NCBI GenBank assembly: GCA_938023735.1
Contig: CALJDK010000016.1
Coordinates: forward strand, 7,145 to 71,144
Origin: an uncultured Acidimicrobiales bacterium
GTDB taxonomy: Bacteria > Actinomycetota > Acidimicrobiia > Acidimicrobiales > SHLQ01
DNA: 64,000 bases
Reading direction: 5' to 3'
In this document: positions 7,724 to 28,771 of the stretch, one piece after another
Numbering within the stretch: the stretch's first letter is position 1
Layout: each line of letters begins with the position of its first letter
The notes under the pieces: model-generated
Seen by the model: the letters and a program-made list of their open reading frames with translations, nothing else
Told to the model about the DNA's origin: nothing
The model's database searches: none
Made by a program: the position numbers and the translations under genes

Positions 7724-7725
7724 AC

Positions 7726-9039: not shown

Positions 9040-9053
9040 AGGTGCCTGTCGGA

Positions 9054-11353: not shown

Positions 11354-13038
11354 GAGACCAGGTTCTTCGAGGCTCGCTCGTAGGCGTAGCGATCGCGGCG
11401 GCTAAAGAAACCAGCGTCGCGGCTGCGGTCGCGGTTGAGGATGGCGCCAAGTACCCGAGCGCCAGCCCGGTCGAGGTCGCTTCGCATCTGAAGGAGGGTG
11501 GACGTGTCGGTGCGCCGGCTATCGACCAACACCACAACGCCGCCAACGCTGGCACTAGCAGCAATGGCGTCGGCAGCCGAGAGAACTGGTGGCGTGTCGA
11601 CGACCACGTATTCGTAGGTGGCCTCGAGGCGACGAATAAGGTCGCGGAACCGAGCAGAACCGAGCAGTTCACCCGGGTTTGCTGGCGTCGGACCCGAAGG
11701 GATCACTGCGAGGTTCTCGACACCGACACTGACAATTGGGGGTGGCGTAACTTCGCGAGCCTGAAGTGCAGTCGAAAGGCCCTCGGTGTTCCCAATGCCA
11801 AAGAGGTTCTCGATGGATGGGCGACGCATATCGGCCGATACCAGCACGGTGGGGGATCCGCCCTGGGCGAGAGCGATTGCCAGGTTGGTGGCCGATACCG
11901 ATTTACCCTCAGCAGGCTGGGCACTTGTAACCAGAAGACTGTGGATGTTGTCGGTGGTGGCGAGGTACTGGAGCGAGGTGCGAAGCCGGCGGAATGACTC
12001 CCGTGCCCGTTGCACCGCGGTCGACTTGCTTGAACTGAGCATGACCAACGCCGAAGCACCGGTTCGGTTGCTGAAACCAAACGGCGGCACGGTTCCGAGA
12101 ACCGATGCGGCCATCGCCAACTCGACATCAGACTCTTCGCGAGCGGTGTTGTCGAGGCGGTCGAGCACGAACGCCGCCGCAATTCCCATCAGAAGACCCG
12201 CGATGAGGCCGGCAGCGCGGATCGCGTTACTGCCGAGCCCGTTGGGCTTTTCGGGAGTTGCAGCGGTCCGAAGGATTTCGGCCGGCGGAGCGTTTGTGAT
12301 TGCCGACTGCGACCGGAGGAGTCGAGAAAGACTTGCTCGAGCCGGATTTATCTGACCGAAGATTCCTTGGCGCTGCGTCGTCAAAGACTGAAGCTGGGCG
12401 TTAAGTGATGGCCGACTGGCAACTTCGCTGGCAGACGCCGTACTTGCGTTCGCACGAGCAAGTTGCTGCGTGACACTTGCCTGCTCTGCGCTAATTTCGT
12501 CGAGTTGAGCGGTGAGCGAGTCGACGTCGGTTTGGACGATCTCGATCTGATTTGCGTAGAACGAATCGGCGTCTCCGACGCGGTCCTCGGCGTAGGTTTC
12601 CATGAACGAGTTGATGATTCTCGCGGCGAGTTCGGGGTTTTCGTCGGTGAAGGTGCCTTCGAGAACAAAGCCGGTTGGAGCAAACTCAACCTTGAATACT
12701 GACGACTCAAGCAGTTCACGAGGCGAGCGTGAGAGCGAAAGTTCACGGGCCACCGTTTGCGCGATCGGAACCGATAACAGTTTGGCTCGCTCGGTTTCGA
12801 GATTCGGCAGTGCCGTGACACCGCTATCGATGCCGCTGTTGGAATCGACCGGGCTTGGGCCAAGGCGAATGGTGGCCGCGGCGTCATAACTCGACGTCCG
12901 CGATGCTGCGAACAGCGTGGCAAGAATAAGACCCAAAAGCGCACAGATGGCAATCAGGAGTTTCCGGGCTTGAATCGCCTTGAGATAGTCCTCAAGCCCT
13001 GGGGTCTCGTTGGCTTGACTATTCGCTTCGTACATCAC
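11350..13038 (-). CDS. Polysaccharide co-polymerase (Wzz domain) fused to a BY-type tyrosine autokinase (copy A)
   Basis: N-terminal TM, a coiled periplasmic-type region and a second TM. Kinase motifs: Walker A SAQPAEGKS, Walker A' VLVSADMRRP, Walker B VVVDTPPV. The C-terminal tail is RRDRYAYER. Confidence 0.85.
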   Translation of the reverse strand: MMYEANSQANETPGLEDYLKAIQARKLLIAICALLGLILATLFAASRTSSYDAAATIRLGPSPVDSNSGIDSGVTALPNLETERAKLLSVPIAQTVARELSLSRSPRELLESSVFKVEFAPTGFVLEGTFTDENPELAARIINSFMETYAEDRVGDADSFYANQIEIVQTDVDSLTAQLDEISAEQASVTQQLARANASTASASEVASRPSLNAQLQSLTTQRQGIFGQINPARASLSRLLRSQSAITNAPPAEILRTAATPEKPNGLGSNAIRAAGLIAGLLMGIAAAFVLDRLDNTAREESDVELAMAASVLGTVPPFGFSNRTGASALVMLSSSKSTAVQRARESFRRLRTSLQYLATTDNIHSLLVTSAQPAEGKSVSATNLAIALAQGGSPTVLVSADMRRPSIENLFGIGNTEGLSTALQAREVTPPPIVSVGVENLAVIPSGPTPANPGELLGSARFRDLIRRLEATYEYVVVDTPPVLSAADAIAASASVGGVVVLVDSRRTDTSTLLQMRSDLDRAGARVLGAILNRDRSRDAGFFSRRDRYAYERASKNLVS

Positions 13039-13239
13039 GGGTGGGGATACCTCGGTAGTAAGGGATCTATCTTACGGGAGCGCCCCGGCGAAAGGACGAC
13101 GCTCGCCAAGACGAACGGGTGCCAATCGGCCAGAGTTGCGCAAAATCGACTGATTGCCGCGGACAGATTCACCGCAAAACAATCACTACTGCCAACCCTA
13201 TTCGAGAAGGCGGTAACAGTGATGGCAATCGAAAGTTCG

Positions 13240-14328
13240 CTACGAGGCGGCAGAACCCTCGTGCTCAAGCCAGCGCTCGGCCATCTTGTCGTGAATCTCA
13301 GTGACGATGGTTTCGAGGCTATGGGTGAGCTTCCAGTCGGGGTAATGCGATTGGAACCGGCGAATATCGCTCACGTACCACTTGTGATCGCCGATGCGGT
13401 TCTCGTCGCTGTAGGTCCACGAGAGCTTTTTGCCCGAGATGCGCTCGGCCAAGTCGATTGCTTCAAGCATCGAGCAGTTGATGTGTCGACCGCCGCCAAT
13501 GTTGTAGACCTCGCCAACTCGCGGACTCTCGTAGAAGTGCTGAAAAGCACTGATGAGGTCGCTGGCGTGGATGTTGTCACGAACCTGTTTCGCTTTGTAC
13601 CCGAATACGGTGTAGGGATTGCCGGTGACCGTGCACTTGACTAGGTACGCAAGAAAGCCGTGAAGCTCGGCGCCGGCATGGTCTGGGCCGGTGAGGCATC
13701 CACCGCGGAACACCGCAGTCTTCATGTCGAAGTAGCGCCCGTACTCCTGGACCAATGCATCGGCGGCAAGTTTTGAGACGCCAAACAGGCTGTGCGTGGA
13801 CTGATCGATGGTCATCTCTTCGGGAATGCCGTGCTCGTGCCAGGGGTGGTTATCGTCGAGTTCCCAGCGGGTTTCGGTTTCGACCAGCGGTAGGTGGTTT
13901 GGTGTATCGCCATAGACCTTGTTGGTCGACGTGAAGATGAACACCGAATCGGGGCAATTCAGCCGAGCGGCCTCGAGAAGGTTGAGGGTTCCGTTGGCGT
14001 TAATCGTGAAATCGGTTTGAGGGTCGCGCGCCGCCCAATCGTGCGAAGGCTGCGCTGCGGTATGAATGATGAGCTTGATATCAGACCCATACTCGGCAAA
14101 CAGCCGGTCCATGGCCTTTTCGTCCCGGATGTCGAGACCAACATGGCGGTAGTTTGGCTGGGTGTTGATGAGGTCGTTAACGACCCAGTCGGTAGAAGCC
14201 TCGTCGCCAAAAAACTCGCGGCGCATATCGTTGTCGATACCTACGACTTCGTCGGCATCTTTGGCGAAATGGGTCACGGCTTGAGAACCGATTAACCCGC
14301 CTGATCCAGTTACGACAACAACCGACAT
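13240..14328 (-). CDS. NAD-dependent sugar-nucleotide epimerase/dehydratase (extended SDR)
   Basis: The start is refined to [15 protein letters not shown] (Rossmann GxGGxxG); the ATG at 14328 is preceded by GGAG. YxxxK is present ([11 protein letters not shown]). The track ORF extends to 14385. Confidence 0.8.
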
Positions 14329-14488
14329 GGTGTTAGAGCTCCGAAAGAATGAATGTAGGTGCGACAAGACGCACGGTTTCAGCATACTTCAGTGTCGGTC
14401 AAGTAAAAATAGGCCATTTGGCGCACTGAAGAACGTTTTTGCAATCGAGCTTGATGGGCAGCCGACCGCCTCAATCCGCTAGCCGAAA

Positions 14489-15394
14489 GTGCACTGTAGT
14501 ACAGTTACTATTTGGACGAGAGAGCCCCTAACTAGTCTCGGCTCACTCAGTACTAACTCAATGGCACAGACATTGTCGATGCGAACGAACAAGAAACGGA
14601 GTGAAGGGTCCTTGACGCCCTCTTCCCCAACGGCTTCCCCAACCGACAAGGCTGAACTGTTTGGCGTTCTTGTGTCGCCGACTACTTACGAAGACGTAGT
14701 CGATTCGGTACTCGTGGCAAGCAAGGATCAGTCGACCCTCGGAGTTACCGCGCTGGCCACGCATGGGCTGATGATCGCAAACGAGGATCCAGAGTTTCGC
14801 GATGTCGTGAATTCGCTCGATATCGTAACCCCCGATGGCCAGCCGGTCCGTTGGGCGCTGAATCGCTTCCACGGCACGGGTCTTGACGATCGGGTCTATG
14901 GCCCGAAGCTCATGTGGGAGATCTGTCGAGCGGCCGCCGACCACTCGATACCAATCTATTTGTTTGGTTCGACCCAGACGACCCTCGATCTGCTCGTCGA
15001 TGCTCTGAAGGCAGCGTTCCCAGGTATCGATATTGCTGGTGCGCAGGCCGATCGATTCCGCGATGCGACTCCCGACGAAGACCTGCTCGATATTGCGACA
15101 ATTCGCGAATCGGGTGCGGGGATCCTGTTCGTGGGACGGGGATGCCCGCTGCAAGAACGTTGGGTTTCCGAGCACTCCGACAGCATCGATATGCCGATGC
15201 TGGCGGTAGGAGCGGCGTTTGACTATCACGCCGGGTTGCTGCGGAAACCGCCCGAGGCGATGCAGCGGGTTGGCCTCGAATGGCTTTGGCGGCTCGGCCT
15301 CGAACCAAAGCGACTATGGCGTCGTTACTTCTCGACCAACTCGCAGTTTGTTGCTGCCTGGGTGCGCACCGAAATGGCTCGCCGTAACGGCTAA
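14489..15394 (+). CDS. WecG/TagA/CpsF-family glycosyltransferase (GT26)
   Basis: GT26 blocks are present: VTALATHGLM, DIVTPDGQPVRWA, ILFVGRGCPLQERW, LAVGAAFDYHAG, GLEWLWRL. The true start may be the ATG near 14551. Confidence 0.8.
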   Translation: MHCSTVTIWTREPLTSLGSLSTNSMAQTLSMRTNKKRSEGSLTPSSPTASPTDKAELFGVLVSPTTYEDVVDSVLVASKDQSTLGVTALATHGLMIANEDPEFRDVVNSLDIVTPDGQPVRWALNRFHGTGLDDRVYGPKLMWEICRAAADHSIPIYLFGSTQTTLDLLVDALKAAFPGIDIAGAQADRFRDATPDEDLLDIATIRESGAGILFVGRGCPLQERWVSEHSDSIDMPMLAVGAAFDYHAGLLRKPPEAMQRVGLEWLWRLGLEPKRLWRRYFSTNSQFVAAWVRTEMARRNG

Positions 15395-15402
15395 CCGGTT
15401 CG

Positions 15403-17547
15403 TTACCGACGGGGCGCAGCAAGCGCCGCTCGCACGCCCTCGCAAAACCGGCTGGCCATGTCTTCGGCCGACAACGTGCTTCCCGATGCGTAGGCGCCAT
15501 CACGAAGCCTGCTCAAGCGTTCGGTATCGCCCAGCAACTCGGCAACCGCAGTTGCATACTGCACCGGTGTGGGGTCGCCCGAAACGGTGATGCCGTTGAC
15601 GCCCTCTTCGAGGTAGTCGATTTCGGGGCTGTGATAGGCGATATCGGTGGTGACTGTAGGCAGTCCAAGGGCGAACGCATCGACGATGTTGAGCCCCACC
15701 ATGCCCGGCATCATCTGGAGGGTCGCCACCGAGGCCAGGCGCACACGCTCGTCGCCGTACTGGGCGCCCATCATATGGATCCAGTCGTTCGTCTCGGCCG
15801 CGTCGGCGACGAAGTGGGCAAGCGAACCGCTGCCGATAACCAGGAACTCGACATCGGGAACCAGTTGGCGAAGGTGTTTCGCCGCTTCGACGAGGAACTC
15901 GGGTCGCTTGTGCGGATACAGCCCGCCGATAAAGGTGACGACCGGCCCGCTCCCAATACCGACCTCGGCCCGGACTTGAGCATCGTTGTCGGAAGGCAAA
16001 GCAGCCATGACCTCGCGGATTCGACGCGTGTCGGTGGAGTTCATCACCGAGGTCACCCGATCGGCAGGCATGCCGGCATCGATGGCGGCATCGCGTGACA
16101 GGGCGTTATAGGCAAAGAACCAATGAGCTTTGGACGTGAGCTTCCGCTTGAGGCCCTCGCCGTCGCCGCCCTCGAATGGTGCATGGAAGTTTTTGCCGTG
16201 ACCCCAGAAGGCGTGTCGGGTTTTGAGAAAGCGTTGGCCGAATACCAACACGATGTTGAAGAGCTGTTTGGAGGCTTGCTCGGTGATGATGAGATCAGCA
16301 TCCCGAGCCGCATCGAATGCCGGCTGCCAGAGCAACGTCGAACCGCGAACCGAGATCTCCCGCATGGGGCGGTGCTCGGCCCAGTCGATGGCGGCTTGAT
16401 CGCCCTTGGCTCGATCTTCGTCGAGCCCGTCGGAGAAGATGAGGCGCAGCGAGATGCCGTGCTCGCGCAATTCCTCTCGAAGCAAGCCATAGAACGCAAC
16501 CCGGTACTGGTTGGAGTTCTTCAGCAGGATCACCACGGTCGCCGAGTCAGCGGCGTCGAGCGAGCCCTTCCCGTACTGATCGAGCACCTTATCGAAGAAG
16601 GCGGGAGGGTAGAGGACTGCGGCCCGAGCAAGATGTGTAGCACCGCCGAACCGGTCTCCCGACAGCGCCTTCGCGCCGCCAACCCGGAAATGCAGGCCCG
16701 AACGGTCGCGGAGGTTTCGAGCAACCCGCTCGGCGAGAGGCGCGTTATCTTCGGCCGCTCGAAACTCGGCCGCTGTTGGCTCGGGGCGACCCTCGACGTT
16801 GGCCTCCTGGCACGCAGCAACGAATCGCACGATGTGGCGCTGATCGCTCCACTTCGAGGTCGACAGCGAATTTTGATGAATGCGAAAGCCGAAGCTGCGG
16901 TCGGGTACCGCAAGGACCGGACCATGAAACGACATCTGCGAGAAGATCCGGTTGTCGAAGCTCAGCGCGAAGTCCGGCTCCCAACCGCCGATCTCGCGGA
17001 GCAGATCGGTGCGAAGCACAGCACCAGGCCACAAGATCTCGAATGCTTTGCCCGAGGCGTGCCATGCCCGCCATTCGTCGACCGTTGTAGGGCCGAGATC
17101 TTTGTTGGATCCGAGCACGGGGTCGTCGGGCGAACCCGCAATGCGGCGAGCGAACGACGTGACAACCGAAGGCACCGGATCGGTGGCGTTGAACGTTTCG
17201 ATAATGCGGGTGATGCGTTCGTCTAGAACCAGATCGTCGTCGCCCATGAAATTGACCAATGGCGTCTCGACGGCCGCAAGCGCCGCATTGTGCGATTCGT
17301 CGATCGGAAGGATCTGCTCGTGGTGAATGAACCGGGTGGGTCCGTTCCAAGCCTGAGCCTGCTCGATGGTGGCGTCGCGCGTTGCTTGACTTGAGCTGTT
17401 GAACAGAATTTGGAGCGTTACGCCGGGCGGCGTGGTTTCGAGAAGACTCGCCAGAGCCGCCCGAAGAAACTCGGGACGATCGACGGTGTTGAGCGCAATC
17501 GTGAGATCTTCGACCGTATAGGTCGGTCGCTCAGCGTCGGTGGTCAT
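15403..17547 (-). CDS. Bifunctional glycosyltransferase (N-terminal GT2-like, C-terminal GT4-like)
   Basis: 714 aa. The N-terminal part has TIALNTVDRPEFL and NFMGDDDLV (DxD). The C-terminal part has VTFIGGLYPHKRPEFL, FLVIGSGS and NIVDAFALGLPTVTTD...EEGVNG. It is the last gene of the kinase/nucleotidyltransferase operon. Confidence 0.7.
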   Translation of the reverse strand: MTTDAERPTYTVEDLTIALNTVDRPEFLRAALASLLETTPPGVTLQILFNSSSQATRDATIEQAQAWNGPTRFIHHEQILPIDESHNAALAAVETPLVNFMGDDDLVLDERITRIIETFNATDPVPSVVTSFARRIAGSPDDPVLGSNKDLGPTTVDEWRAWHASGKAFEILWPGAVLRTDLLREIGGWEPDFALSFDNRIFSQMSFHGPVLAVPDRSFGFRIHQNSLSTSKWSDQRHIVRFVAACQEANVEGRPEPTAAEFRAAEDNAPLAERVARNLRDRSGLHFRVGGAKALSGDRFGGATHLARAAVLYPPAFFDKVLDQYGKGSLDAADSATVVILLKNSNQYRVAFYGLLREELREHGISLRLIFSDGLDEDRAKGDQAAIDWAEHRPMREISVRGSTLLWQPAFDAARDADLIITEQASKQLFNIVLVFGQRFLKTRHAFWGHGKNFHAPFEGGDGEGLKRKLTSKAHWFFAYNALSRDAAIDAGMPADRVTSVMNSTDTRRIREVMAALPSDNDAQVRAEVGIGSGPVVTFIGGLYPHKRPEFLVEAAKHLRQLVPDVEFLVIGSGSLAHFVADAAETNDWIHMMGAQYGDERVRLASVATLQMMPGMVGLNIVDAFALGLPTVTTDIAYHSPEIDYLEEGVNGITVSGDPTPVQYATAVAELLGDTERLSRLRDGAYASGSTLSAEDMASRFCEGVRAALAAPRR

Positions 17548-17568
17548 CGAAGGGTTCCGAGTGGCTGA

Positions 17569-18318
17569 CTAATCTTCGAGTCGCGCCCGGATAGCCATAT
17601 CCTGGGCCGCTTCCATGCTGGCGACGTCGTTGAGGTTTAGGTAGTCGCCTTCCAGATCGAAGGCAGCGACCTCGTGTCCGTCGCGGATGAGATCGTCGAC
17701 AAAGGTGACGAAGTCGAGCGAGGTTCGACCCGACTGAAACGCGGTCTCAAGCAGCACCATCACATCAGGATGGATCACGAATGATGCCATGCCTAAGAGG
17801 TCGTTGGGCAACGAAACCGGGTTCTCGACCAATCGGATAACCCGCTCGCCATCGCGATCGACCGAGAAGTTCTTCTTGATGAGCTCGGGGTTGTCGACCG
17901 GCTTCACCGGCAGAACGGTGGTGAACCGCTGGTCGTCGAAGTTGATGATTTCGCCGAGGTTGGTGTTGAGATAAAACTCGTCGGCCAGCATGACCAAACC
18001 GTGTCGGCCTGCCATGTACGGCTTGGCCAGAAGTACCGACCACGCCCAGCCTTTGTCGAGGTGCTGGTTCTCGACGTAGGTGATGCGAACGCCGAAGTCG
18101 GAGCCATCGCCGAAGAACTCACGAATCGAGTCGGCCATATAGCCAAGGACGATGACGATCTCGGAAATGCCCGCTTCGTCGCGCATGAGCTCGACATGAC
18201 GCTCGATGTTTGGTTTGCCGTCGATGAGGAACATGCCCTTATGCACCTCATAGGTGTAGGGCCTGGCCCGGATACCGCTGCCCGCGGCGGGAATAATACC
18301 GATCAATGAATCGACCAT
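17569..18318 (-). CDS. Sugar-1-phosphate nucleotidyltransferase (NTP_transferase family, short form)
   Basis: N-terminal GIIPAAGSGIRARP matches the G-x-G-x-R pyrophosphorylase loop. At 249 aa it is the size of HddC / RmlA-N-domain proteins. Confidence 0.7.
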   Translation of the reverse strand: MVDSLIGIIPAAGSGIRARPYTYEVHKGMFLIDGKPNIERHVELMRDEAGISEIVIVLGYMADSIREFFGDGSDFGVRITYVENQHLDKGWAWSVLLAKPYMAGRHGLVMLADEFYLNTNLGEIINFDDQRFTTVLPVKPVDNPELIKKNFSVDRDGERVIRLVENPVSLPNDLLGMASFVIHPDVMVLLETAFQSGRTSLDFVTFVDDLIRDGHEVAAFDLEGDYLNLNDVASMEAAQDMAIRARLED

Positions 18319-18333
18319 GAGAGAACCCGTTTC

Positions 18334-19602
18334 TTAAAGGTTGATCGTTGCGTAGAGCGAGCGGACTGAAGCGACCAGGTCGTCGATGGACGACATGGTG
18401 TGGCGTTCGGCCATGATGTGCTTGCTGAGCCGCAGGTTGAGTACTTCCAGCTCGGAGCGCCGAGCAGGGTCTTCGATGTCGCGGACATCGGCCACACCGG
18501 CAATTCCGACGGTGCGGCGAGCCATCGAGCAGGCACAGAAGCCGGCCGACTCGCGTAACAGATCGAGCATGAACTCGGATTTCAACGTGGCGAACTCGTC
18601 GGGGGTGAGGAGCCCGGCGGTGAGCATGGTGGACTCTGCGGCGGCGTCCCAGAGCTCGATGAACCGCTGCTCGAAGGTGTTCCAGATCACCGGGATCTGC
18701 GCAAGAATCCACTCGCGATACTCCTGGCCGCCCGCCCGCTCGTAGTGCGCTGTGCATGCCAGCAGGAAGTTGGAGATGATTTTGCCGATATCGAACCCGA
18801 ATGGACCGAAGAAGGCGAACTCCATGTCGATGACGTAAGTGTCGTCCTGGTTCACCATGAGCGAGCCGGTGTGGAGATCGCCGTGGAGGAGCGCATCGGT
18901 CTTTGCGACAAACAGATCTTTGAAGCCAAGAACATCGAGCTTGTAGCGAGAATCGGTGTGAATGTTCTCGCGCACCCACTCGTCGGTTGCCGGATTCGAG
19001 TAGTTGGACTCGTGTTCCATGTAGGGGAACGTGAAGATGAACTCTTCGGTGAGCTTGCAGAGTTCGTCGTTTTTGACGAACTGCGCCATGAGGTCGCGGC
19101 GGGCCTCGCTGGGCATTGCCCACGCGCTGGTCGCAAACAGCGTCTCGGCCATGAACTTGCCGATTGCCTCGGCGGCGGTGGGGTAGGTGATGGCGTCGAT
19201 CATTCCGATGCGGAGAATGATGTGTTCGCTGAGGCATTCCATGATCAAGGTGCTCATGGCCTCGTCGGCGTGGAACACGCCAGGCACCAGGTCGGGAACG
19301 ATGTCGTTGTAGAGATTCAGCGCCCGGATCTCGTAGTTCATCCGGTCTCGGCTGAGCGGCCACGCTTCGCCAACCAACCGAAAATACGGCACGGCCTGCT
19401 TCACGATGACCTGCTTTGACGCGTCGGACGCGTTGGTCACCCGGTACACATAGTTGACGTTGCCGTCGCCGATCTCGTCGATGGTGATGGCGTCGCTCGC
19501 GAAGCCGGCCGAAAGCCCGAGCGCCTCGACCACGCTGGGAAGCTCGCCGAGGTAGGCCGGAAGCTTGTCGAGGTCGAGAATGTAGTAGTTGTCGTCGCTC
19601 AC
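18334..19602 (-). CDS. S-methyl-5-thioribose kinase (MtnK) family kinase
   Basis: It is collinear over the full length with MtnK hallmarks: IGDGNVNYVYRV, VKQAVPY, GEAWPLSRDR, HGDLHTGS, IDMEFAFFGPFGFDIG, RRTVGIAGVADV. The GTG start overlaps the stop of the upstream IMPase gene. Confidence 0.8.
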   Translation of the reverse strand: MSDDNYYILDLDKLPAYLGELPSVVEALGLSAGFASDAITIDEIGDGNVNYVYRVTNASDASKQVIVKQAVPYFRLVGEAWPLSRDRMNYEIRALNLYNDIVPDLVPGVFHADEAMSTLIMECLSEHIILRIGMIDAITYPTAAEAIGKFMAETLFATSAWAMPSEARRDLMAQFVKNDELCKLTEEFIFTFPYMEHESNYSNPATDEWVRENIHTDSRYKLDVLGFKDLFVAKTDALLHGDLHTGSLMVNQDDTYVIDMEFAFFGPFGFDIGKIISNFLLACTAHYERAGGQEYREWILAQIPVIWNTFEQRFIELWDAAAESTMLTAGLLTPDEFATLKSEFMLDLLRESAGFCACSMARRTVGIAGVADVRDIEDPARRSELEVLNLRLSKHIMAERHTMSSIDDLVASVRSLYATINL

Positions 19603-20426
19603 GAGTGAACGGGTTGCGCCTCGACAACACCCGCTTTCGCGAGCTCATCGAGCATGGCGGTATGGATCAGGCCATTGGTAACGAGGAGGTCGGTCTTTTG
19701 CAGGTCCCACGGGTTGCCGTGGAAGTCGCTGACCATTCCGCCAGCCTCTTCGACACAAAGCACGCCCGCAGCTACGTCCCAGGGCGAGATGGACAATGTG
19801 GTAAAGGCATCGACGCGGCCGGCCGCGACCATGTAGCACTCGACCGCAGCTGAACCGATTTTGCGGAAATCTTTGTTCTGCTTGTGAATGGCGTACTCGA
19901 GCTCGGCGAATCGAATGTTGTTCTTCTCGCCGCCGGGGCAACCAACGGCGTAAGACTTGGCGATCTCGTCGGTGGTGGACACCTGCACGGGGCGGCCGTT
20001 GATGGTGCAACCGTGATCGCGTCGAGCGACCACCATCTCCTCGAGGTACGGCGAGAAGATCACGCCGGTAATGGGCTTGTTCTGGAACGCCAGGGCAATC
20101 GACACTGCAAAGAACGGGTTGTGATTGAGGAAGTTGCTGCTGCCGTCGAGCGGGTCGATAATCCAGGTGAAATCGCTGCCATTGTCGATAAGACCCGTCT
20201 CTTCGGTAAGGAGATTGTGGTCGGGGCATCGCTCGGTGAGGACCTTGATGATGATGGCGTCCGCCTCGTGGTCGCTCGAAGACGTGACCTCTTTGGACAG
20301 GCTGCGGTTACCGACTGACTGCACCTGATTGCCGTACACGGTCGCTTGATGCGCCCGAAAGTTATCGACAAGGGATTTGCCAGCTAGCGTTGCGGCCTCA
20401 ACGGCTACATCTGCGAAATAATGCAT
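19599..20426 (-). CDS. Inositol monophosphatase (IMPase/SuhB) family phosphatase
   Basis: Classic motifs are present: LTEETG, WIIDPLDGSSNF, WDVAAG. Confidence 0.8.
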   Translation of the reverse strand: MHYFADVAVEAATLAGKSLVDNFRAHQATVYGNQVQSVGNRSLSKEVTSSSDHEADAIIIKVLTERCPDHNLLTEETGLIDNGSDFTWIIDPLDGSSNFLNHNPFFAVSIALAFQNKPITGVIFSPYLEEMVVARRDHGCTINGRPVQVSTTDEIAKSYAVGCPGGEKNNIRFAELEYAIHKQNKDFRKIGSAAVECYMVAAGRVDAFTTLSISPWDVAAGVLCVEEAGGMVSDFHGNPWDLQKTDLLVTNGLIHTAMLDELAKAGVVEAQPVHS

Positions 20427-20623
20427 AGTGGTTCAAGATACCACCCGACATGGGCGTGTGGAAGGCCGAGCGCAGAAGGGGCCCAATGGCCCAGCGGCAA
20501 GAAACGCGAATTTGGCGGGCGTCGAGCGGCGACCGACGATGCGAGCTTGTGTTCTGGCAAAGTAAACCACCAACCATAATCTGCCCGTAGACTTGCGACC
20601 GTGAGCAACCGGCTTGTTCGTCG

Positions 20624-21892
20624 ATGAACGACGAGTTAGATGATGACGTGCAACCGGGCGTTGTTGGACGGGCCTCTGTAGCAAAGAATACCAGTTTCGT
20701 GCTCGTGGCCGAGTTGGTGTTCTCGGCCGGTCGAATGCTCATTTTCGTGCTGCTTGGTAAGGCGCTCGGGCGCGTCGAACTGGGACGCTACGTCGCCGTG
20801 CTCGGAATGGTTCAACTGTTGTTTCCGCTTGCTCGGGTGGGGATCGCCCACGTCATGGTGCGGAGTATCGCCCAAGGCGGCAAATCCGGCTTCGGCGATG
20901 CCTGGTCGAAGAACGTCACCGTCCACGGACTCGGTGGAATCGTCGGCGCGGGCGTCAGCGTTGCGCTAGCGAAGATACTCTTCGACGTCAGCGCTTTCGC
21001 CGTCCTACTGATCGCCGCTGCTCAGTTTGTTGGGCTTGGCTTACAACAGGCCGGCGGCATGGCAGCGAACGCGTTTGGCAGGGCCGAGGTGGGGCTTGCA
21101 CTGAACGGTGCCAACACGATTCTGCGCGTGCTGGCGGTCCTGCTCTTCATACAGTCCGGCGGTGACTCGGTTGACTCGTGGGCGCTCTACCTTTTCGGCG
21201 CAGCAGGTCTCGGTGTTTTGTGCACGTTGCTGATCGTTGGCCGTTTCTTCGAGGTGCAGCTAAAGCTTCAGTTACCGACCCGGCCAGATCTGGTGCTTGC
21301 TACGCCTTTCGTGTTTGCCGACACGGCGAACTCGGCGCAGGCAGACATCGACAAGGTGGTCCTCGGAGGGCTCGGCCTTAACGCCGATAACGGGGTATAC
21401 GCGGCAGCCTACCGCGTCGCTGATCTTGCGAATCTCCCTCTGGCCGCGCTGGTTAAGGCAACCTATGGCGAGTTCTTCCGTCGGGGCGATAGTCCAATCG
21501 GTGAGATGCTTCGCTACTCAAAACGGCTGACCGGCGTCGCGATGAGCTACGGAGCCGTTATCGGTGTTGGGCTTTGGGTTGCAGCGCCACTAGTAGAGGT
21601 CGCGATGGGCGAAGAGTTCGATGATTCAATTTCTGCGCTCCGATGGATTGCAGTCGTGCCGTTTATCCGCGCCGCTCAGTACTTTCCGGCCAACGTGCTC
21701 GCAGGCGTAGGCCGCCAGTGGGAACGTGCACGATTGATGGGCTCGACCGCACTTCTCAACCTTGCTGCGAATCTTGCCTTGGCCCCGACGATGGGTTGGC
21801 GAGGCGCAGCGCTCAGTACCATCCTCGCCGAGATCGCTTTTGGAGTGCTCTTGTGGCGGAGAGTGGCGAAATTGGACCGAAATGTTGGGTGA
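20624..21892 (+). CDS. Polysaccharide flippase, MOP/Wzx family (copy B)
   Basis: 422-aa polytopic membrane protein. It is divergent from the IMPase operon and opens the second (plus-strand) module. Confidence 0.65.
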   Translation: MNDELDDDVQPGVVGRASVAKNTSFVLVAELVFSAGRMLIFVLLGKALGRVELGRYVAVLGMVQLLFPLARVGIAHVMVRSIAQGGKSGFGDAWSKNVTVHGLGGIVGAGVSVALAKILFDVSAFAVLLIAAAQFVGLGLQQAGGMAANAFGRAEVGLALNGANTILRVLAVLLFIQSGGDSVDSWALYLFGAAGLGVLCTLLIVGRFFEVQLKLQLPTRPDLVLATPFVFADTANSAQADIDKVVLGGLGLNADNGVYAAAYRVADLANLPLAALVKATYGEFFRRGDSPIGEMLRYSKRLTGVAMSYGAVIGVGLWVAAPLVEVAMGEEFDDSISALRWIAVVPFIRAAQYFPANVLAGVGRQWERARLMGSTALLNLAANLALAPTMGWRGAALSTILAEIAFGVLLWRRVAKLDRNVG

Positions 21893-21992
21893 GGGGCTAA
21901 AGGGGCAGGTAGATTGGTGGATTGAGACGACATCTGTCATGCCGCGATCGTTGAGAACTAGCCGCTGCTCTCACTAAAGATGCCTTCTGCGG

Positions 21993-23531
21993 GTGCCGAA
22001 ACCTTTGGGTATGTCCTCCAAGGCCCATATCCCATTCGGCCAGCGCTCTGCAATGGCCCGCAGATCCGTGCTCTTCGCTGTCACATCGATACTCTTGTTG
22101 CTTGTCCTTGCGCTGACAGCTACGTCCTTTGGTCGAACTGATGAGTTGTCTGCGGGGGAGTCGGTTCCGATCGGCGCAGTTGAAGAAGACGACCGACGCG
22201 TTGTCCGAGAACTCGAAGTCCCCACCGGTAACGCATCAAGTGACACGATCGCATCGTCGCCTACCGACTCCACCACACCGACATCGCTAGGTGTAGACCG
22301 GCCCCCAGTGGCCGACGTCCCTGCTGACGAATCACCGACAGCTAACGATGATGCGACCCAGCCGGTCGCAACGACGGCCTTGCCTTCGACCTCGACGGTT
22401 TCGCCAAGCTCGACGGTTTCGCCAAGCTCGACCGTGTCAGCCGTGCCGGTTCAGTCCGCTGATTCGACGGTTCCGTCTAGCGTGCCGGTGGTCGCTAACT
22501 CGTTGGCAGCGCAGCCCAGCAGTACCACGACACCGACCGTAGCGCTACAGCAGTCGACCGCTGACCTGCAAGCTGCATGGGCAGCGAGAAAACAGCCGAT
22601 GTCGAAGGACTTCACCTTGATGGGGCTGGTGGAGAATTCACAGCAAATGGATTTCGGCCAATCTGATTCACAAGTGAGGTCGGCGCTTGAAGACATCTTC
22701 GGTCCGGTGAAGTATGCGAACTCCGAGAACTGGCACAACTTGGCGGTTGTGGAAGACCCGACAGGCGACTACATCCGGTACCGCAGCAACGTTGGCAACA
22801 ACTCGCGCCAACAGTTCAACGTCCCGATAGTTCCGTCTCAGGAGTCCTACCTCGTGTATCGATTTCAGCTTGAGCCTGGATTCGATGCGGGCGACGGCGA
22901 TGGCTCCCATGGTTCGCCATCGTGGGGTACCGGGATCAAGATGCCCGGACTAATGAGGGGGGGCCCAGCGGCCAACACCGGCGGTAACCACACCGAAGGC
23001 GGATTTTCCGGGCGACTCATGATCCGCGGCACGCGCCATTCCGACGGGCGAAACGACTTGCCACGCGAAGGGATCTCTCTCGCAGCATATGTGTACGGGC
23101 AGAGGATCGACGGGGCCAATATAACGTCGGGCTTTGGCGAGGACTACTACTTCCTTGACGGTTTCGACACCACCCCCTTCGAGGGCATCAGAAGCGGAAT
23201 CAATGGTGGCGTTGGAGATCCGCGCATCTGGGACCTCGAGGTCGGCCGCTGGGTCACCGTCGTCCTCGGATATCGCGTCGAAGGCGGGAACGGATGGTTC
23301 AAAGCATGGACTATGACCGAGGGAATCGACGCTGCCCCACAGCCCCGACTGTTCATTGACAAGATCGACTGGACCGGCGGCTGGGAAGGACCAGACTCGC
23401 TCTTGATGCAGCAGTACTACGGAGGCAGCGGACCTGTTTGGCATCCTGACACGGAGTCCTATATCCGCTTTAAGGATTTCGGCGTGTTCCGTAATGAAAC
23501 CTCGGCACTCTCGTTCGCCGGTCAGAGTTAG
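21993..23531 (+). CDS. Secreted/anchored protein with a C-terminal PL14-like (Polysacc_lyase-type) domain; putative polysaccharide lyase
   Basis: Signal-anchor MARRSVLFAVTSILLLLVLAL (the likely start is 22011 or 22050). An S/T/P-rich linker follows. The C-terminal domain has IKMPGLMRGG..NTGGNHTEGGFSGRLMIRG..., YVYGQ and QQYYGGSGPVWHPD..YIRFKDFGVF, resembling the KLPGL / GFSxRLMWR / FFGG..W...Y..FKNF pattern of PL14. Confidence 0.5.
   Translation: MPKPLGMSSKAHIPFGQRSAMARRSVLFAVTSILLLLVLALTATSFGRTDELSAGESVPIGAVEEDDRRVVRELEVPTGNASSDTIASSPTDSTTPTSLGVDRPPVADVPADESPTANDDATQPVATTALPSTSTVSPSSTVSPSSTVSAVPVQSADSTVPSSVPVVANSLAAQPSSTTTPTVALQQSTADLQAAWAARKQPMSKDFTLMGLVENSQQMDFGQSDSQVRSALEDIFGPVKYANSENWHNLAVVEDPTGDYIRYRSNVGNNSRQQFNVPIVPSQESYLVYRFQLEPGFDAGDGDGSHGSPSWGTGIKMPGLMRGGPAANTGGNHTEGGFSGRLMIRGTRHSDGRNDLPREGISLAAYVYGQRIDGANITSGFGEDYYFLDGFDTTPFEGIRSGINGGVGDPRIWDLEVGRWVTVVLGYRVEGGNGWFKAWTMTEGIDAAPQPRLFIDKIDWTGGWEGPDSLLMQQYYGGSGPVWHPDTESYIRFKDFGVFRNETSALSFAGQS
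22391..22426 (+). repeat. Perfect 18-bp tandem duplication inside the PL14-like gene linker
   Basis: ctcgacggtttcgccaag occurs twice back-to-back, followed by a degenerate third unit. It encodes STVSPS-STVSPS-STVSAV. Confidence 0.85.
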
Positions 23532-23543
23532 AGCCGAACAGCT

Positions 23544-24446
23544 TTAGAGGCTTCTGGTCGTAACGACTCCCGCTACACCCTCAACCTTGCCAATGTTCGA
23601 CCACAGGCGCATGTGCGCTTCTGCGCGCCGGTGAGAGTGTCGTTTCCCCAAAGCGACAATCGGGGCCATAGCTACGATCTGCACGGTCGCTTTCACTAGG
23701 AGCGCCAGAACGCTTGGATTTGCCACGCTGCCGGTAAGGCTCACCGTTTGGCGGGCGTGATTTTGCCCCTGTCGACGCACCCGGTCTCGTATCCAAGGCC
23801 AGTTCGCCCTCGACTCCGGAACTGTCTCAACAACCGCTCCTTCACCGCAGTCGATGAACTTTGCCCCAAGGAGCTCGAGTTGGCGGAACAGCATCGAATC
23901 GGCCCCTCCCGACAAACCATACGAAGGGTCGAAGGGGCCAGGAACTTTCTGGAGAACGGCTGCCCTCACGAGCGTGTTCGAGGTTCGAAAGGCGCGTGCC
24001 CGTCGGCCAGTCTCATGGATCGAGCGGTTGAAAGCTGACGACGTCAGAATCCAACTTGGATGGTTTCCCTCGAACTTGGGAAGAACCGGACCGAAGACGC
24101 CATCGGCGTCGAAACGTTTCATCGCCTCGAGGAGTTCACTCAACGCTGCTGGAGTCGCCGTCTCATCATCGTCAACAAACCAAATCAGATCGCCGACCGC
24201 CATGCGGACGGCGAGATTTCGGGTGAGACTTATGTTTTGCTCTGCTTGGGTGTAGTAGTGAACATCGAAGCGACTCGCTTTTCTGAACTCGTCGACGGTG
24301 TCTCTCGCAGAATCCGGGTCGTTGTCGACGACGATGATGTCGACCACTACATCCGGCTCGAGTACCTGCCTCTCCAAGCTTTCGAGCAGGTCGCGAAGGC
24401 CTTTGTTTCGCTTATACGTCGCGATGCATACTGTGCACGTGGTCAT
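23544..24446 (-). CDS. Glycosyltransferase family 2
   Basis: VCIATYKRNKGLRDLL, IIVVDNDPDS and FVDDDE motifs. It is a paralog of 9054..10016. Confidence 0.8.
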   Translation of the reverse strand: MTTCTVCIATYKRNKGLRDLLESLERQVLEPDVVVDIIVVDNDPDSARDTVDEFRKASRFDVHYYTQAEQNISLTRNLAVRMAVGDLIWFVDDDETATPAALSELLEAMKRFDADGVFGPVLPKFEGNHPSWILTSSAFNRSIHETGRRARAFRTSNTLVRAAVLQKVPGPFDPSYGLSGGADSMLFRQLELLGAKFIDCGEGAVVETVPESRANWPWIRDRVRRQGQNHARQTVSLTGSVANPSVLALLVKATVQIVAMAPIVALGKRHSHRRAEAHMRLWSNIGKVEGVAGVVTTRSL

Positions 24447-24458
24447 GCCGCGGGATCG

Positions 24459-25475: not shown

Positions 25476-25540
25476 TTTCGAATAGAATGAAAGGCACTGA
25501 GCGCCGAAGCGCTTTGTTGCGAACTACGAGGATTTTCGGA

Positions 25541-27415: not shown

Positions 27416-27470
27416 ACCGTCAGGAGCGGGCGACAATAGTAACGATCGTGCAACTGGCGCCTGGAGGCAA

Positions 27471-28604: not shown

Positions 28605-28771
28605 AAGGAAAGAATCCGGACGAAGTCGCCGCCCGTTTACTTGGAAAGAATACGTCCAGACGGCCCTGTTGCCGGGCGCCTAGCGCAGTGTACGATTGGA
28701 GACAATGGAATCTCCAGCGTCGGACCATCTCGGCCCCGTACTGGTCGGTGGACAGAGGTGCAACCGTGGTG

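What the first reader, a model, noticed from the sequence alone, without database searches (positions are those of the whole stretch)
15403..20426. MtnK-family kinase + nucleotidyltransferase + IMPase-family phosphatase operon feeding a GT2-GT4 fusion: a possible salvage-to-glycan activation route
**Seen in the sequence.** Four minus-strand genes are packed as one unit.
- The IMPase-family gene stop overlaps the kinase GTG start (GTGA at 19599-19602).
- The kinase-to-nucleotidyltransferase gap is 15 nt.
- The nucleotidyltransferase-to-GT2-GT4 gap is 21 nt.
- The 422-aa kinase is collinear end to end with methylthioribose kinase hallmarks (GDGNxNYVxR, KQAxPY, GExWPLxxDR, HGDLHTGS, ExAFxGPxGFD).

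**Established knowledge.** MtnK makes a pentose-1-phosphate in methionine salvage and is normally followed by MtnA/MtnB-type enzymes. None of those is in this window. An anomeric kinase plus a sugar-1-P nucleotidyltransferase is the standard logic of salvage-type NDP-sugar formation. Kinase/phosphatase/nucleotidyltransferase trios also exist for heptoses (HddA/GmhB/HddC) but use unrelated kinase and phosphatase folds.

**Inference.** This cassette may convert a free sugar into an NDP-sugar that the adjacent bifunctional GT installs in the locus polymer. The sugar could be a 5-modified pentose such as methylthioribose or 5-deoxyribose (SAM by-products). I do not know of a described pathway with this composition, but I cannot search to confirm novelty.
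Basis: partly seen in the sequence, partly recalled or inferred. Interest (0 to 1): 0.78.

Follow-up and report, generated by a model that had tools for sequence, protein, structure and literature searches.

The report
MtnK-like kinase sugar-nucleotide cassette
A phosphatase, a methylthioribose-kinase-like sugar kinase and a sugar-phosphate nucleotidyltransferase move together as one gene block across three bacterial phyla, usually next to glycosyltransferases and never next to methionine-salvage genes, so they most likely make an undescribed nucleotide-activated ribose-type sugar for a glycan.

Summary
In detail: coordinates, strand, the 21-nt and 15-nt gaps, the GTGA overlap and all family assignments are correct.

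**Conserved unit.** It is the triad IMPase–kinase–NTase, not the four genes.
- The triad is collinear in all 28 related loci examined. They come from Acidimicrobiales, several Gammaproteobacteria and Nitrospirales.
- The three proteins diverge together (r = 0.82–0.91).

**Kinase.** It scores above the curated MtnK threshold, but it belongs to a separate clade.
- The clade is monophyletic (30/30 bootstraps).
- Relatives at least 51% identical always have IMPase and NTase neighbours and never MtnA (0/24).
- Relatives at most 50% identical never have them, and 44 of 74 have MtnA.
- The clade keeps every MTR-contacting residue, including the hydrophobic cap over the 5-substituent.
- It has an invariant Ser where MTR kinases have Lys or Glu.

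**Partners.** The next gene is usually a glycosyltransferase: GT2 in Acidimicrobiales (the N-terminal half of this window's fusion) and GT61 elsewhere.

**Best reading.** This is a salvage-type route to an NDP-activated 5-substituted ribofuranose for a glycan. The sugar identity and the phosphatase's step are unresolved. I found no prior description in the searchable literature. I rate it a new variant of a known pathway logic, of high interest.

The parts
19599..20426 (-). First gene of the cassette: an IMPase-family phosphatase, 275 aa. Its stop overlaps the kinase start.
   Evidence: - PF00459 scores 197 bits. No NCBIfam equivalog cut-off is reached: SuhB 153/332, HisN 148/275, FBPase/IMPase 141/264, CysQ 95/229.
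- The catalytic motifs EE, DPLDGSSNF and WDVAAG are present.
- The best solved relatives are IMPase/SuhB proteins at E 4e-43.
- It lies adjacent to the kinase in every triad-type locus with contig room, at 58-81% identity.
18334..19602 (-). MtnK-family (APH-fold) anomeric sugar kinase, 422 aa, from a distinct triad-linked clade.
   Evidence: - TIGR01767 scores 444 bits against a cut-off of 275.
- H240/D242, D259-x-E261-F262, R362-R363, W81, F188 and I367 are conserved. Ser359 replaces the Lys/Glu of MTR kinases.
- Twelve positions are clade-specific.
- The clade is monophyletic in 30/30 bootstraps.
17569..18318 (-). Sugar-1-phosphate nucleotidylyltransferase, 249 aa, RmlA/GalU/MurU fold.
   Evidence: - PF00483 scores 59 bits. 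No NCBIfam cut-off is reached (best: rmlA_long 99/320).
- The AF2 model has pLDDT 84.5. Foldseek finds RmlA, GalU and MurU at TM 0.76-0.82 and about 20% identity.
- The family is tight: 295 hits, and the top 120 are at least 69% identical.
- It follows the kinase in every triad-type locus with room.
15403..17547 (-). GT2-GT4 fusion glycosyltransferase, 714 aa, last gene of the operon.
   Evidence: Pfam finds GT2 at residues 21-129 and GT4 at residues 531-686. The fusion is specific to this contig.
16558..17520 (-). GT2 domain of the fusion (residues 10-330). This is the conserved candidate acceptor-side enzyme in Acidimicrobiales.
   Evidence: It is 62% identical over 321 aa to the stand-alone GT2 that follows the NTase in L005. 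The same gene is present in L006, L008, L101 and L102.
15490..15957 (-). GT4 (GT-B) C-terminal domain of the fusion.
   Evidence: PF00534 and PF13692 match residues 531-686. It is about 33% identical to the separate, oppositely oriented GT4 next to the triad in L005, L006 and L008.
20427..20623 (.). Divergent intergenic region between the cassette and the Wzx gene at 20624-21892. A promoter function is inferred.
   Evidence: The sequence is. No sigma-70 consensus match was found, which is uninformative for this lineage.
1..31722 (.). Surrounding Wzx/Wzy-type polysaccharide locus (context only).
   Evidence: It holds GT4, GT2, two Wzx, two Wzy and two Wzc genes, plus WecG, an SDR epimerase/dehydratase, a methyltransferase, AT3-SGNH, two PL14-like genes and beta-helix proteins.

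Best explanation
The three translationally coupled genes form a mobile, self-contained module. It turns a free furanose sugar into a nucleotide-activated donor for a glycosyltransferase.

**Proposed steps.**
1. The MtnK-clade kinase phosphorylates O1 of an alpha-D-ribo-configured furanose that carries a small hydrophobic 5-substituent. The best candidates are 5-methylthioribose or 5-deoxyribose, the nucleosidase products of the SAM by-products MTA and 5'-deoxyadenosine.
2. The RmlA/GalU-fold NTase condenses the sugar-1-phosphate with an NTP. The N-terminal region is most GalU/UGPase-like, which leans weakly towards UTP.
3. The gene that follows is an inverting GT-A enzyme: the GT2 domain in this window and in other Acidimicrobiales, GT61 in Gammaproteobacteria. 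It transfers the furanose to a glycan or another acceptor.
4. The IMPase-family phosphatase is an obligatory fourth activity whose step is not identified. I think it most likely acts on a phosphorylated precursor or intermediate of the same sugar.

**Shown:** gene anatomy, families, conservation of the triad, its separation from MtnA-linked kinases, retention of the pocket residues, and the glycosyltransferase context.

**Inferred:** the substrate, the nucleotide, the order of the steps and the acceptor.
For: **Conservation of the triad.**
- The triad is collinear and on one strand in 15/15 genome loci from Acidimicrobiales, Granulosicoccaceae, Thiotrichales, other Gammaproteobacteria and Nitrospirales.
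- The same holds in 6 metagenome loci and in 7 contigs with precomputed gene calls.
- IMPase-to-kinase junctions are overlaps or gaps of at most 18 nt in nearly all loci.
- Identities of the three proteins to the window co-vary (r = 0.82-0.91).

**Separation from canonical MtnK.**
- Kinases at least 51% identical: IMPase and NTase are present wherever the contig allows, and 0/24 have MtnA.
- Kinases at most 50% identical: 0/74 have IMPase or NTase, and 44/74 have MtnA. Those MtnA proteins pass TIGR00512 at 392-443 bits against a cut-off of 279.
- The clade is monophyletic in 30/30 bootstraps.

**Kinase pocket.**
- D242, R362/R363 and F262 are invariant, and the methylthio cap W81/F188/I367 stays hydrophobic. 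Residue roles come from PMC2194712.
- MtnK-family kinases take 5-deoxyribose as well as MTR and reject ordinary pentoses and hexoses (PMC6079011).

**NTase.** The fold is that of sugar-1-phosphate thymidylyl/uridylyltransferases.

**Neighbours.** GT2, GT61, GT4, DUF5672, Wzm/Wzt, Wzy, WecG and PL14 genes flank the triad. The GT2 domain is conserved.
Against: - A phosphatase is not needed for MTR or 5-deoxyribose to go to sugar-1-P and then NDP-sugar. The most conserved partner is therefore unexplained.
- No nucleosidase, phosphorylase, radical-SAM gene or MTA-producing gene recurs near the triad.
- One SAM by-product per repeat unit would be a costly supply for a bulk polymer.
- Ser359 and Lys274, next to the O2/O3-binding RR motif, show that the sugar site is not identical to that of MTR kinases.
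- Some loci have no exporter or polymerase within 10 kb.
- No enzyme activity, NDP-sugar or glycan composition has been measured.
Confidence: 0.5

Rival explanations
1. **Mutase bypass.** The cassette logic is the same, but the sugar comes from central metabolism and not from SAM by-products.
1. The IMPase first removes a non-anomeric phosphate from a sugar phosphate, for example a pentose 5-phosphate.
2. The kinase re-phosphorylates the free sugar at C1.
3. The NTase activates it.

This is an ATP-driven bypass of a phosphomutase, the same logic as MupP, AmgK and MurU.
For: - It gives the IMPase a necessary step that matches the gene order and the translational coupling.
- It supplies sugar stoichiometrically for a polymer.
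- The clade-specific changes K/E to S359 and A to K274 beside the sugar-binding RR motif allow an altered substrate.
- The precedent is the MupP pathway (PMC5371407).
Against: - The 5-substituent cap remains hydrophobic and is indistinguishable from MtnA-linked kinases.
- Characterised family members reject ribose and other ordinary sugars (PMC6079011).
Confidence: 0.22
2. **Heptose-like bisphosphate route.** The kinase phosphorylates C1 of a sugar that is already phosphorylated. The IMPase then removes the other phosphate to leave a sugar-1-phosphate for the NTase, following HddA/GmhB/HddC logic.
For: - The IMPase superfamily contains bisphosphatases (FBPase, PAP phosphatase). The NF009321 FBPase/IMPase model scores 141 bits.
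- Losing the acidic or basic residue at position 359 and gaining K274 could reshape the charge near O2/O3.
Against: - There is no basic pocket where a 5-phosphate would sit: W81, F188 and I367 are hydrophobic.
- No isomerase or synthase for a special sugar phosphate recurs in the loci.
Confidence: 0.08
3. **Non-polymer acceptor.** The module makes an NDP-sugar, but the acceptor is not an exported polysaccharide. It could be a small molecule, a glycolipid, a protein, or a phosphorylated acceptor that the IMPase dephosphorylates after transfer, as in the sucrose-P, trehalose-P and GlcNAc-Ins-P synthase/phosphatase pairs.
For: - In L020 the triad plus GT61 stands alone beside an FMO and a PKS.
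- In L101 and L102 the triad plus GT2 and GT4 sits among housekeeping genes with no exporter within 10 kb.
- L016 and L023 have no glycosyltransferase among the few flanking ORFs that were scanned.
- This reading would give the IMPase a post-transfer role.
Against: - In this window and in L004, L009, L013, L015, L018, L103 and L104 the triad is embedded in Wzx/Wzy or ABC-type polysaccharide loci.
- The glycosyltransferase families differ between lineages while the IMPase stays constant.
Confidence: 0.12
4. **Ordinary MtnK.** The kinase works in methionine salvage (or the DHAP shunt), and its neighbours are coincidental.
For: It passes the TIGR01767 equivalog cut-off. JGI names clade members '5-methylthioribose kinase'.
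Against: - Adjacency to IMPase and NTase holds in 28/28 loci across three phyla, with co-divergence.
- MtnA is present in 0/24 triad-type flanks against 44/74 for the rest of the family.
- The clade is separate and carries its own signature residues.
Confidence: 0.03

Closest known systems
MtnK, 5-methylthioribose kinase (B. subtilis 2olc; A. thaliana 2pyw)
   Same: - Same fold and family: 36-39% identity, above the TIGR01767 cut-off.
- Same catalytic H-x-D, DxE-F and RR motifs, and the same hydrophobic cap over the 5-substituent.
   Different: - It forms a separate monophyletic clade.
- Ser359 replaces the Lys/Glu reported for all MTR kinases (PMC2194712). Eleven further positions are clade-specific, including A to K274.
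- It is never next to MtnA and always lies between an IMPase and an NTase.
DrdK / DHAP-shunt kinase (kinase-isomerase-class II aldolase trios; PMC6079011)
   Same: It is an MtnK paralogue recruited to a task other than methionine salvage. The nearest non-triad relatives (43-47% identity) sit in kinase-MtnA-like-Aldolase_II clusters.
   Different: In DrdK clusters the sugar-1-phosphate is isomerised and cleaved, which is catabolic. Here the downstream enzyme is a nucleotidylyltransferase, which is anabolic, and no isomerase or aldolase is present.
MupP / AmgK / MurU (MurNAc recycling in Pseudomonas; PMC5371407)
   Same: - Both combine a phosphatase, an APH-fold anomeric kinase and a small NTP_transferase to give an NDP-sugar.
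- MurU is among the best structural matches of the NTase (TM 0.76).
   Different: - The phosphatase fold is different: HAD in MupP, IMPase here.
- The kinase belongs to the MtnK clade, not the AmgK clade.
- The NTase scores 58.5 bits against the MurU cut-off of 250.
- The three genes form one operon beside glycosyltransferases and are not peptidoglycan-recycling genes.
HddA / GmhB / HddC (GDP-D-glycero-alpha-D-manno-heptose pathway; from my own knowledge)
   Same: It is a kinase, phosphatase and NTase trio inside polysaccharide loci that makes an NDP-sugar.
   Different: - The kinase is GHMP and the phosphatase is HAD, so both folds are unrelated to those here.
- The substrate is a heptose bisphosphate.
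- The HddC model scores 26.5 bits against a cut-off of 300.
5-Methylthioxylofuranose (MTX) capping of M. tuberculosis lipoarabinomannan (as summarised in PMC11127046)
   Same: It is the only known glycan built from an MTA-derived 5-methylthio-pentofuranose. It would be the chemical precedent if the sugar here is MTR.
   Different: - That route goes from MTA to a decaprenyl-phosphate-linked donor and a periplasmic GT-C enzyme.
- It has no kinase, NTase or NDP-sugar.
- PMC11127046 states it is unclear whether the modification exists outside LAM.
LipP / LipM / LipN (UDP-5-amino-5-deoxyribose in caprazamycin-type nucleoside antibiotics; recalled from memory, not checked here)
   Same: A 5-modified alpha-D-ribose-1-phosphate is converted by an NTP_transferase-family enzyme into a UDP-ribofuranose, which a glycosyltransferase then uses.
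   Different: The sugar-1-phosphate comes from a nucleoside phosphorylase, not a kinase. There is no phosphatase, and the setting is secondary metabolism. Homology to LipM was not tested.
PRPP-dependent ribofuranose incorporation (gPRT-PRP enzymes and undP-Ribf three-component systems; PMC11127046)
   Same: It supplies a pentofuranose to bacterial glycans and involves a phosphatase step.
   Different: The donor is PRPP or a polyprenyl-phosphate sugar, not an NDP-sugar. The phosphatase is HAD-type and acts after transfer. None of the enzymes are homologous.

Membership tests
MtnK (S-methyl-5-thioribose kinase, TIGR01767) | Full-length match above the curated equivalog score | tested here: met
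   444.4 bits against a cut-off of 275; residues 6-413 match profile positions 1-400 of 401.
MtnK (S-methyl-5-thioribose kinase, TIGR01767) | Catalytic and MTR-contacting residues: G-loop GDGN, H-G-D Asp, DxE-F, RR motif, and the W-loop Trp plus two aliphatic cap residues | tested here: met
   All are invariant or conservatively replaced in 59 clade members: W81, F188, D242, D259/E261/F262, R362/R363 and I367. HGD reads HAD in 35 of the 59.
MtnK (S-methyl-5-thioribose kinase, TIGR01767) | Lys or Glu three residues before the RR motif ('always' in known MTR kinases, PMC2194712) | tested here: not met
   Ser in 59/59 and in 22/23 triad-type loci. K or E in 68/72 evaluable other family members.
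MtnK (S-methyl-5-thioribose kinase, TIGR01767) | Pathway context: product consumed by MtnA (MTR-1-P isomerase) | tested here: not met
   0/24 triad-type loci and 0 hits in the window, against 44/74 other loci. MtnA identity was confirmed. Whole genomes were not searched.
MtnK (S-methyl-5-thioribose kinase, TIGR01767) | ATP-dependent phosphorylation of MTR at C1 | not testable with these tools
   This needs an enzyme assay.
Sugar-1-phosphate nucleotidylyltransferase (PF00483, RmlA/GalU type) | Pfam gathering score and the Rossmann-like NTase fold | tested here: met
   59.4 bits against a cut-off of 21.2. The AF2 model has pLDDT 84.5, and Foldseek gives TM 0.76-0.82 to RmlA, GalU and MurU.
Sugar-1-phosphate nucleotidylyltransferase (PF00483, RmlA/GalU type) | Membership of a characterised equivalog (RmlA, GalU, MurU, HddC, ManC, GlmU, G1P-cytidylyltransferase) | tested here: not met
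   The best is rmlA_long at 98.8/320. Others: AglF 92.5/400, MurU 58.5/250, galU 47.7/327, HddC 26.5/300.
Inositol monophosphatase family (PF00459) | Pfam gathering score and the metal-binding motifs (EE; DPxDG[ST]; WDxA[AG]G) | tested here: met
   196.9 bits against a cut-off of 27. The sequence contains LLTEETG, DPLDGSSNF and WDVAAG.
Inositol monophosphatase family (PF00459) | Membership of a characterised equivalog (SuhB/IMPase, HisN, CysQ, FBPase/IMPase) | tested here: not met
   SuhB 152.6/332, HisN 148/275, FBPase/IMPase 141.4/264 and CysQ 95/229.
MupP/AmgK/MurU anomeric-kinase salvage system | APH-fold anomeric kinase together with an NTP_transferase | tested here: met
   The kinase matches PF01636 and the NTase matches PF00483; the genes are adjacent.
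MupP/AmgK/MurU anomeric-kinase salvage system | HAD-type MurNAc-6-P phosphatase and a MurU-equivalog NTase | tested here: not met
   The phosphatase is IMPase-fold. The MurU model scores 58.5 bits against a cut-off of 250.
HddA/GmhB/HddC heptose activation | GHMP kinase, HAD phosphatase and an HddC-equivalog NTase | tested here: not met
   The kinase is APH-fold and the phosphatase is IMPase-fold. HddC scores 26.5 bits against a cut-off of 300.
GT2-GT4 fusion as partner of the cassette | Conserved adjacency of the same glycosyltransferase to the triad | tested here: inconclusive
   The GT2 half is conserved in Acidimicrobiales (62% identity; L005, L006, L008, L101, L102). The GT4 is separate and on the opposite strand there. 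Other lineages have GT61 or no GT in that position.

The most novel reading that the evidence does not exclude
Uncultured Acidimicrobiales, Gammaproteobacteria and Nitrospirales build a SAM-by-product sugar into their glycans through a nucleotide-activated pentofuranose. The sugar would be 5-methylthio-D-ribofuranose or 5-deoxy-D-ribofuranose, and the donor would be made by a repurposed MtnK-clade kinase and a dedicated NTase. This would be the first NDP-pentofuranose salvage route for bacterial glycans and the first thio- or 5-deoxy-pentose glycan outside mycobacterial LAM. The IMPase-family enzyme would catalyse a step with no counterpart in known sugar-nucleotide pathways.
Probability: 0.3. 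Interest if true: 0.85.

Novelty: new variant of a known kind. Interest (0 to 1): 0.72.

Why it matters
**Glycobiology.** Pentofuranoses are thought to enter bacterial glycans through PRPP or polyprenyl-phosphate donors, not through NDP-sugars. The only methylthio-pentose glycan known is the MTX cap of M. tuberculosis LAM, and it is reported as unclear whether that chemistry exists elsewhere (PMC11127046). A horizontally mobile three-gene module would add a new nucleotide sugar, and a new link between SAM by-product disposal and cell-surface chemistry.

**Annotation.** The kinase clade passes the curated MtnK equivalog threshold, and JGI names some members 5-methylthioribose kinase. Methionine-salvage capacity may therefore be over-called in these genomes. 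Ser359, Lys274 and the IMPase/NTase neighbours give a simple rule for separating the clade.

**Enzymology.** The IMPase-family partner is translationally coupled and better conserved than the kinase, yet it has no assigned reaction.

Tried and rejected
- **5-phosphate substrate (ribose-5-P to ribose-1,5-bisP).** I looked for basic residues at the 5-substituent cap. The cap is W81/F188/I367 and looks the same as in MtnA-linked kinases, so I downgraded this idea.
- **Recurrent source enzyme.** I looked for a nucleosidase, a phosphorylase, radical-SAM genes or an MTA-producing enzyme near the triad. None recurs among 57 flanking proteins or in seven Pfam-labelled neighbourhoods.
- **Inositol/CDP-inositol reading.** IMPase plus an IPCT-like NTase would suggest it. 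The NTase scores only 31.7 bits against a cut-off of 580 on the IPCT/DIPPS model, and the kinase keeps its ribofuranose-binding residues. Rejected as unlikely.
- **MshA-like GT4 with a phosphatase.** The MshA model scores 37.5 bits against 462, and the GT4 is not conserved with the triad. Rejected.
- **Literature.** These term combinations returned no relevant description:
  - MtnK + nucleotidyltransferase
  - methylthioribose kinase + nucleotidyltransferase + polysaccharide
  - methylthioribose + glycosyltransferase + sugar nucleotide
  - methylthioribose + glycan
  - ribofuranose / nucleotidyltransferase / anomeric kinase
  - 5-amino-5-deoxyribose + nucleotidylyltransferase
- **Promoter and terminator scan of the operon.** Uninformative.
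- **ORF caller.** My greedy ORF caller missed some kinases in GC-rich loci, so I replaced it with tblastn-based scoring.
- **First residue mapping.** The mapping made with mafft --keeplength was wrong. I redid it.

Full report
**1. Observation**

- GT fusion, 15403-17547, 714 aa
- NTase, 17569-18318, 249 aa
- Kinase, 18334-19602, 422 aa, GTG start
- IMPase-family gene, 19599-20426, 275 aa

Reading the junctions directly confirms a 21-nt gap, a 15-nt gap and the GTGA stop/start overlap. The unit is bounded upstream by a 197-nt divergent intergenic region shared with a Wzx gene. Downstream it meets a convergent WecG-family gene that ends 8 nt away.

Profile searches confirm every family call:
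- The fusion has GT2 (residues 21-129) and GT4 (residues 531-686).
- The NTase matches PF00483.
- The kinase matches PF01636 and, end to end, TIGR01767 MTRK at 444 bits against a cut-off of 275.
- The IMPase matches PF00459 at 197 bits.

The kinase aligns over its full length with A. thaliana MTK (2pyw, E 1.7e-85) and B. subtilis MtnK (2olc, E 1.1e-72).

The cassette lies inside a polysaccharide locus of at least 31 kb. That locus holds two Wzx, two Wzy and two Wzc genes, several GTs, an SDR epimerase/dehydratase, a methyltransferase, an AT3-SGNH acyltransferase and two PL14-like genes. No MtnA or class-II-aldolase-type salvage gene is present anywhere in the 64-kb window.

The window comes from a 186-kb metagenomic contig. 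Its closest relatives are Acidimicrobiales MAGs.

**2. What is conserved**

*Genome loci.* A genome-collection scan with the kinase returned 15 loci. They come from Acidimicrobiales, Granulosicoccaceae, Thiotrichales, other Gammaproteobacteria and Nitrospira/Nitrospirales.
- In all of them the IMPase, kinase and NTase homologues lie in the same order on the same strand.
- The IMPase (60-81% identity) and the NTase (64-80%) are better conserved than the kinase (54-70%).
- Clustering all flanking ORFs showed that these three genes are the only universally shared ones.

*Contigs with precomputed gene calls.* Seven further contigs gave the same picture.

*Junctions.* IMPase-to-kinase junctions are overlaps or gaps of at most 18 nt in nearly all loci. 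Translational coupling is therefore a conserved trait.

*Co-divergence.* Identities of the three proteins to the window co-vary (r = 0.82-0.91). That is the expected pattern for a cassette transferred as a unit between phyla.

*The fourth gene is not conserved as such.*
- The GT2 half of the fusion (residues 10-330) is 62% identical to a stand-alone GT2 that directly follows the NTase in other Acidimicrobiales (L005, L006, L008, L101, L102).
- In those loci the GT4 is a separate gene on the opposite strand.
- In Gammaproteobacteria the position after the NTase is often taken by a GT61 (L010, L011, L018-L020).
- Elsewhere it is taken by Wzm/Wzt ABC-exporter genes (L013, L015) or by sulfotransferase and Wzy genes (L009).

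*Flank families.* Among 57 flanking proteins, the commonest families include GT2, GT61 and GT4.

*Loci without export genes.* In a minority of loci the triad, with or without a GT, sits among housekeeping genes with no exporter nearby.

**3. Where the clade ends**

A family-wide alignment (this clade plus the At and Bs enzymes) was used to scan metagenome contigs. It returned 80 loci spanning 35-59% identity to the window kinase. Scoring all loci by tblastn gave a sharp split.

| Kinase identity to window | Loci | IMPase + NTase adjacent | MtnA in flanks |
|---|---|---|---|
| at least 51% | 24 | yes, wherever the contig leaves room | 0/24 |
| at most 50% | 74 | 0/74 | 44/74 (44 of the 62 with room) |

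- The neighbours of the second group pass the MtnA equivalog cut-off (392-443 bits against 279). They are followed by class-II-aldolase-family genes. These are methionine-salvage or DHAP-shunt clusters of the kind described in PMC6079011.
- In a neighbour-joining tree the 82 triad-type kinases are monophyletic in 30/30 bootstrap replicates.

**4. The kinase's substrate site**

The residue roles below come from the structure paper for the A. thaliana enzyme (PMC2194712).

| Role in MTR kinases | A. thaliana | This clade (59 sequences) |
|---|---|---|
| Binds O1/O2 (Asp of HGD) | D238 | D242, invariant |
| Binds O2/O3 (RR motif) | R365 | R362/R363, invariant |
| Packs on the hydrophobic face of the sugar | F258 | F262, invariant |
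| Caps the 5-methylthio group | W76, V184, V370 | W81, F188, I367, still hydrophobic |
| Three residues before RR, 'always' Lys or Glu | K362 | Ser359 in 59/59 |

- Across the loci, position 359 is Ser in 22/23 triad-type kinases. It is Lys or Glu in 68/72 evaluable kinases of the other group.
- A systematic comparison found 12 positions that are at least 95% conserved in the clade and at most 5% shared with the rest of the family. They include K274, which is Ala in the rest.
- S359 and K274 could amount to a relocation of a positive charge next to the O2/O3-binding arginines. I could not test this in three dimensions.
- The cap residues do not distinguish the clade. The site still looks built for an alpha-ribofuranose with a small apolar 5-substituent, and not for a 5-phosphate.
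- Characterised family members accept both MTR and 5-deoxyribose and reject ordinary pentoses and hexoses (PMC6079011).

**5. The other two enzymes**

*NTase.*
- It reaches no NCBIfam equivalog cut-off. The best is rmlA_long at 99 bits against 320.
- By sequence it is only remotely similar to any solved structure, at about E 1e-10.
- Its family is small and tight: 295 hits, with the top 120 at least 69% identical. Many hits carry the same longest-contig lengths as the kinase hits.
- An AlphaFold model (pLDDT 84.5) superposes on RmlA, GalU/UGPase and MurU at TM 0.76-0.82 and about 20% identity. It is therefore a sugar-1-phosphate nucleotidylyltransferase.
- Its N-terminal nucleotide-binding region matches GalU/UGPase models best. 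That is only a weak pointer to UTP.

*IMPase.*
- It keeps all catalytic motifs.
- It is roughly equidistant from the SuhB, HisN and FBPase/IMPase models, all below their cut-offs.
- Its identity of 58-81% across phyla is far above what I would expect for housekeeping orthologues at that taxonomic distance. That expectation rests on my own judgement; no reference set was compared here. It marks the IMPase as a dedicated pathway enzyme.

**6. Mechanism**

*Best-supported reading (confidence about 0.5).* This is a salvage-type sugar-nucleotide route.
1. A free 5-substituted ribofuranose (MTR or 5-deoxyribose) is phosphorylated at C1.
2. The sugar-1-phosphate is converted into an NDP-furanose.
3. 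An inverting GT-A enzyme (GT2 or GT61) transfers the furanose.

*Weak point.* The IMPase is a problem for this model because neither candidate sugar needs a phosphatase. The alternatives that give the IMPase a role are:
- **Phosphatase first.** The route runs phosphatase, then anomeric kinase, then NTase, from a central sugar phosphate. This is the MupP/AmgK/MurU logic (PMC5371407). The unchanged hydrophobic cap argues against it.
- **Bisphosphate route.** This is the HddA/GmhB/HddC logic. The same cap residues argue against it.
- **Post-transfer dephosphorylation.** The phosphatase would act on a phosphorylated acceptor after glycosyl transfer. This fits the loci that lack export genes, but it is hard to reconcile with the changing GT families.

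*Rejected.* Ordinary methionine salvage is effectively excluded by the context data.

**7. Comparison with known systems and novelty**

- The logic (anomeric kinase plus NTase, with a phosphatase) is known.
- The enzyme combination (MtnK-clade kinase, IMPase-fold phosphatase, orphan RmlA-fold NTase) and the implied product were not found in any of six literature searches.
- PMC11127046 states that bacterial pentofuranoses enter glycans from PRPP or polyprenyl-phosphate donors. It adds that the MTA-derived MTX route is not known outside LAM.
- I therefore classify this as a new variant of a known kind.
- It also corrects annotation. This clade passes the MtnK equivalog threshold, and JGI names some members 5-methylthioribose kinase.

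**8. Limits**

- No whole genome could be searched for mtnN, mtnP or mtnA-D.
- No coordinates were available to place S359 and K274 in the pocket.
- Nothing here measures activity, nucleotide choice or glycan composition.

Noticed in passing
window 3856-6156 (-), repeat array 4415-4785: A 766-aa beta-helix protein with Cementoin-like repeats. It contains an 18-nt (6-aa) tandem array of about 20 copies. That array probably accounts for the AT skew of -0.28 at 4001-6000. A second beta-helix/NosD-like paralogue lies at 6281-7723.
   Followed up: partly
window 21993-23531 (+) and 27321-28604 (+): Two PL14-like polysaccharide-lyase paralogues, 63% identical over 305 aa. PL14-like genes also lie near the triad in L009 and in L018/L019. 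They may be a recurrent partner of these loci.
   Followed up: partly
window 7726-13038 and 20624-31722: The locus looks like two Wzx/Wzy gene sets side by side: Wzc at 11350-13038 and 28688-30415, Wzy at 10013-11353 and 30412-31722, and Wzx at 7726-9039 and 20624-21892.
   Followed up: no
window 34542-35651 (+): A 369-aa fusion of an RNase H domain with a YpsA/SLOG-family domain.
   Followed up: no
window 45311-48685 (-): A second, unrelated APH-fold kinase (45311-46765) lies next to an enolase-superfamily MR_MLE gene (46504-47700) and a DUF1611 P-loop gene (47585-48685). The function is unknown.
   Followed up: no
L020 7159-11316; L101 9162-14156; L102 9164-14237: In some lineages the triad plus its GT(s) is a stand-alone island with no exporter or polymerase within 8-10 kb. 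L020 has GT61 and lies beside an FMO and a large PKS. L101 and L102 have GT2 and GT4 among housekeeping genes.
   Followed up: partly
L014 7995-8858: An rve-family integrase/transposase lies immediately upstream of the triad in a Nitrospirales MAG. This is consistent with the cassette being mobile.
   Followed up: no
alignment A1, kinase position 241: The HGD catalytic motif, described as strictly conserved, reads HAD in 35 of 59 clade members. This window has HGD.
   Followed up: no
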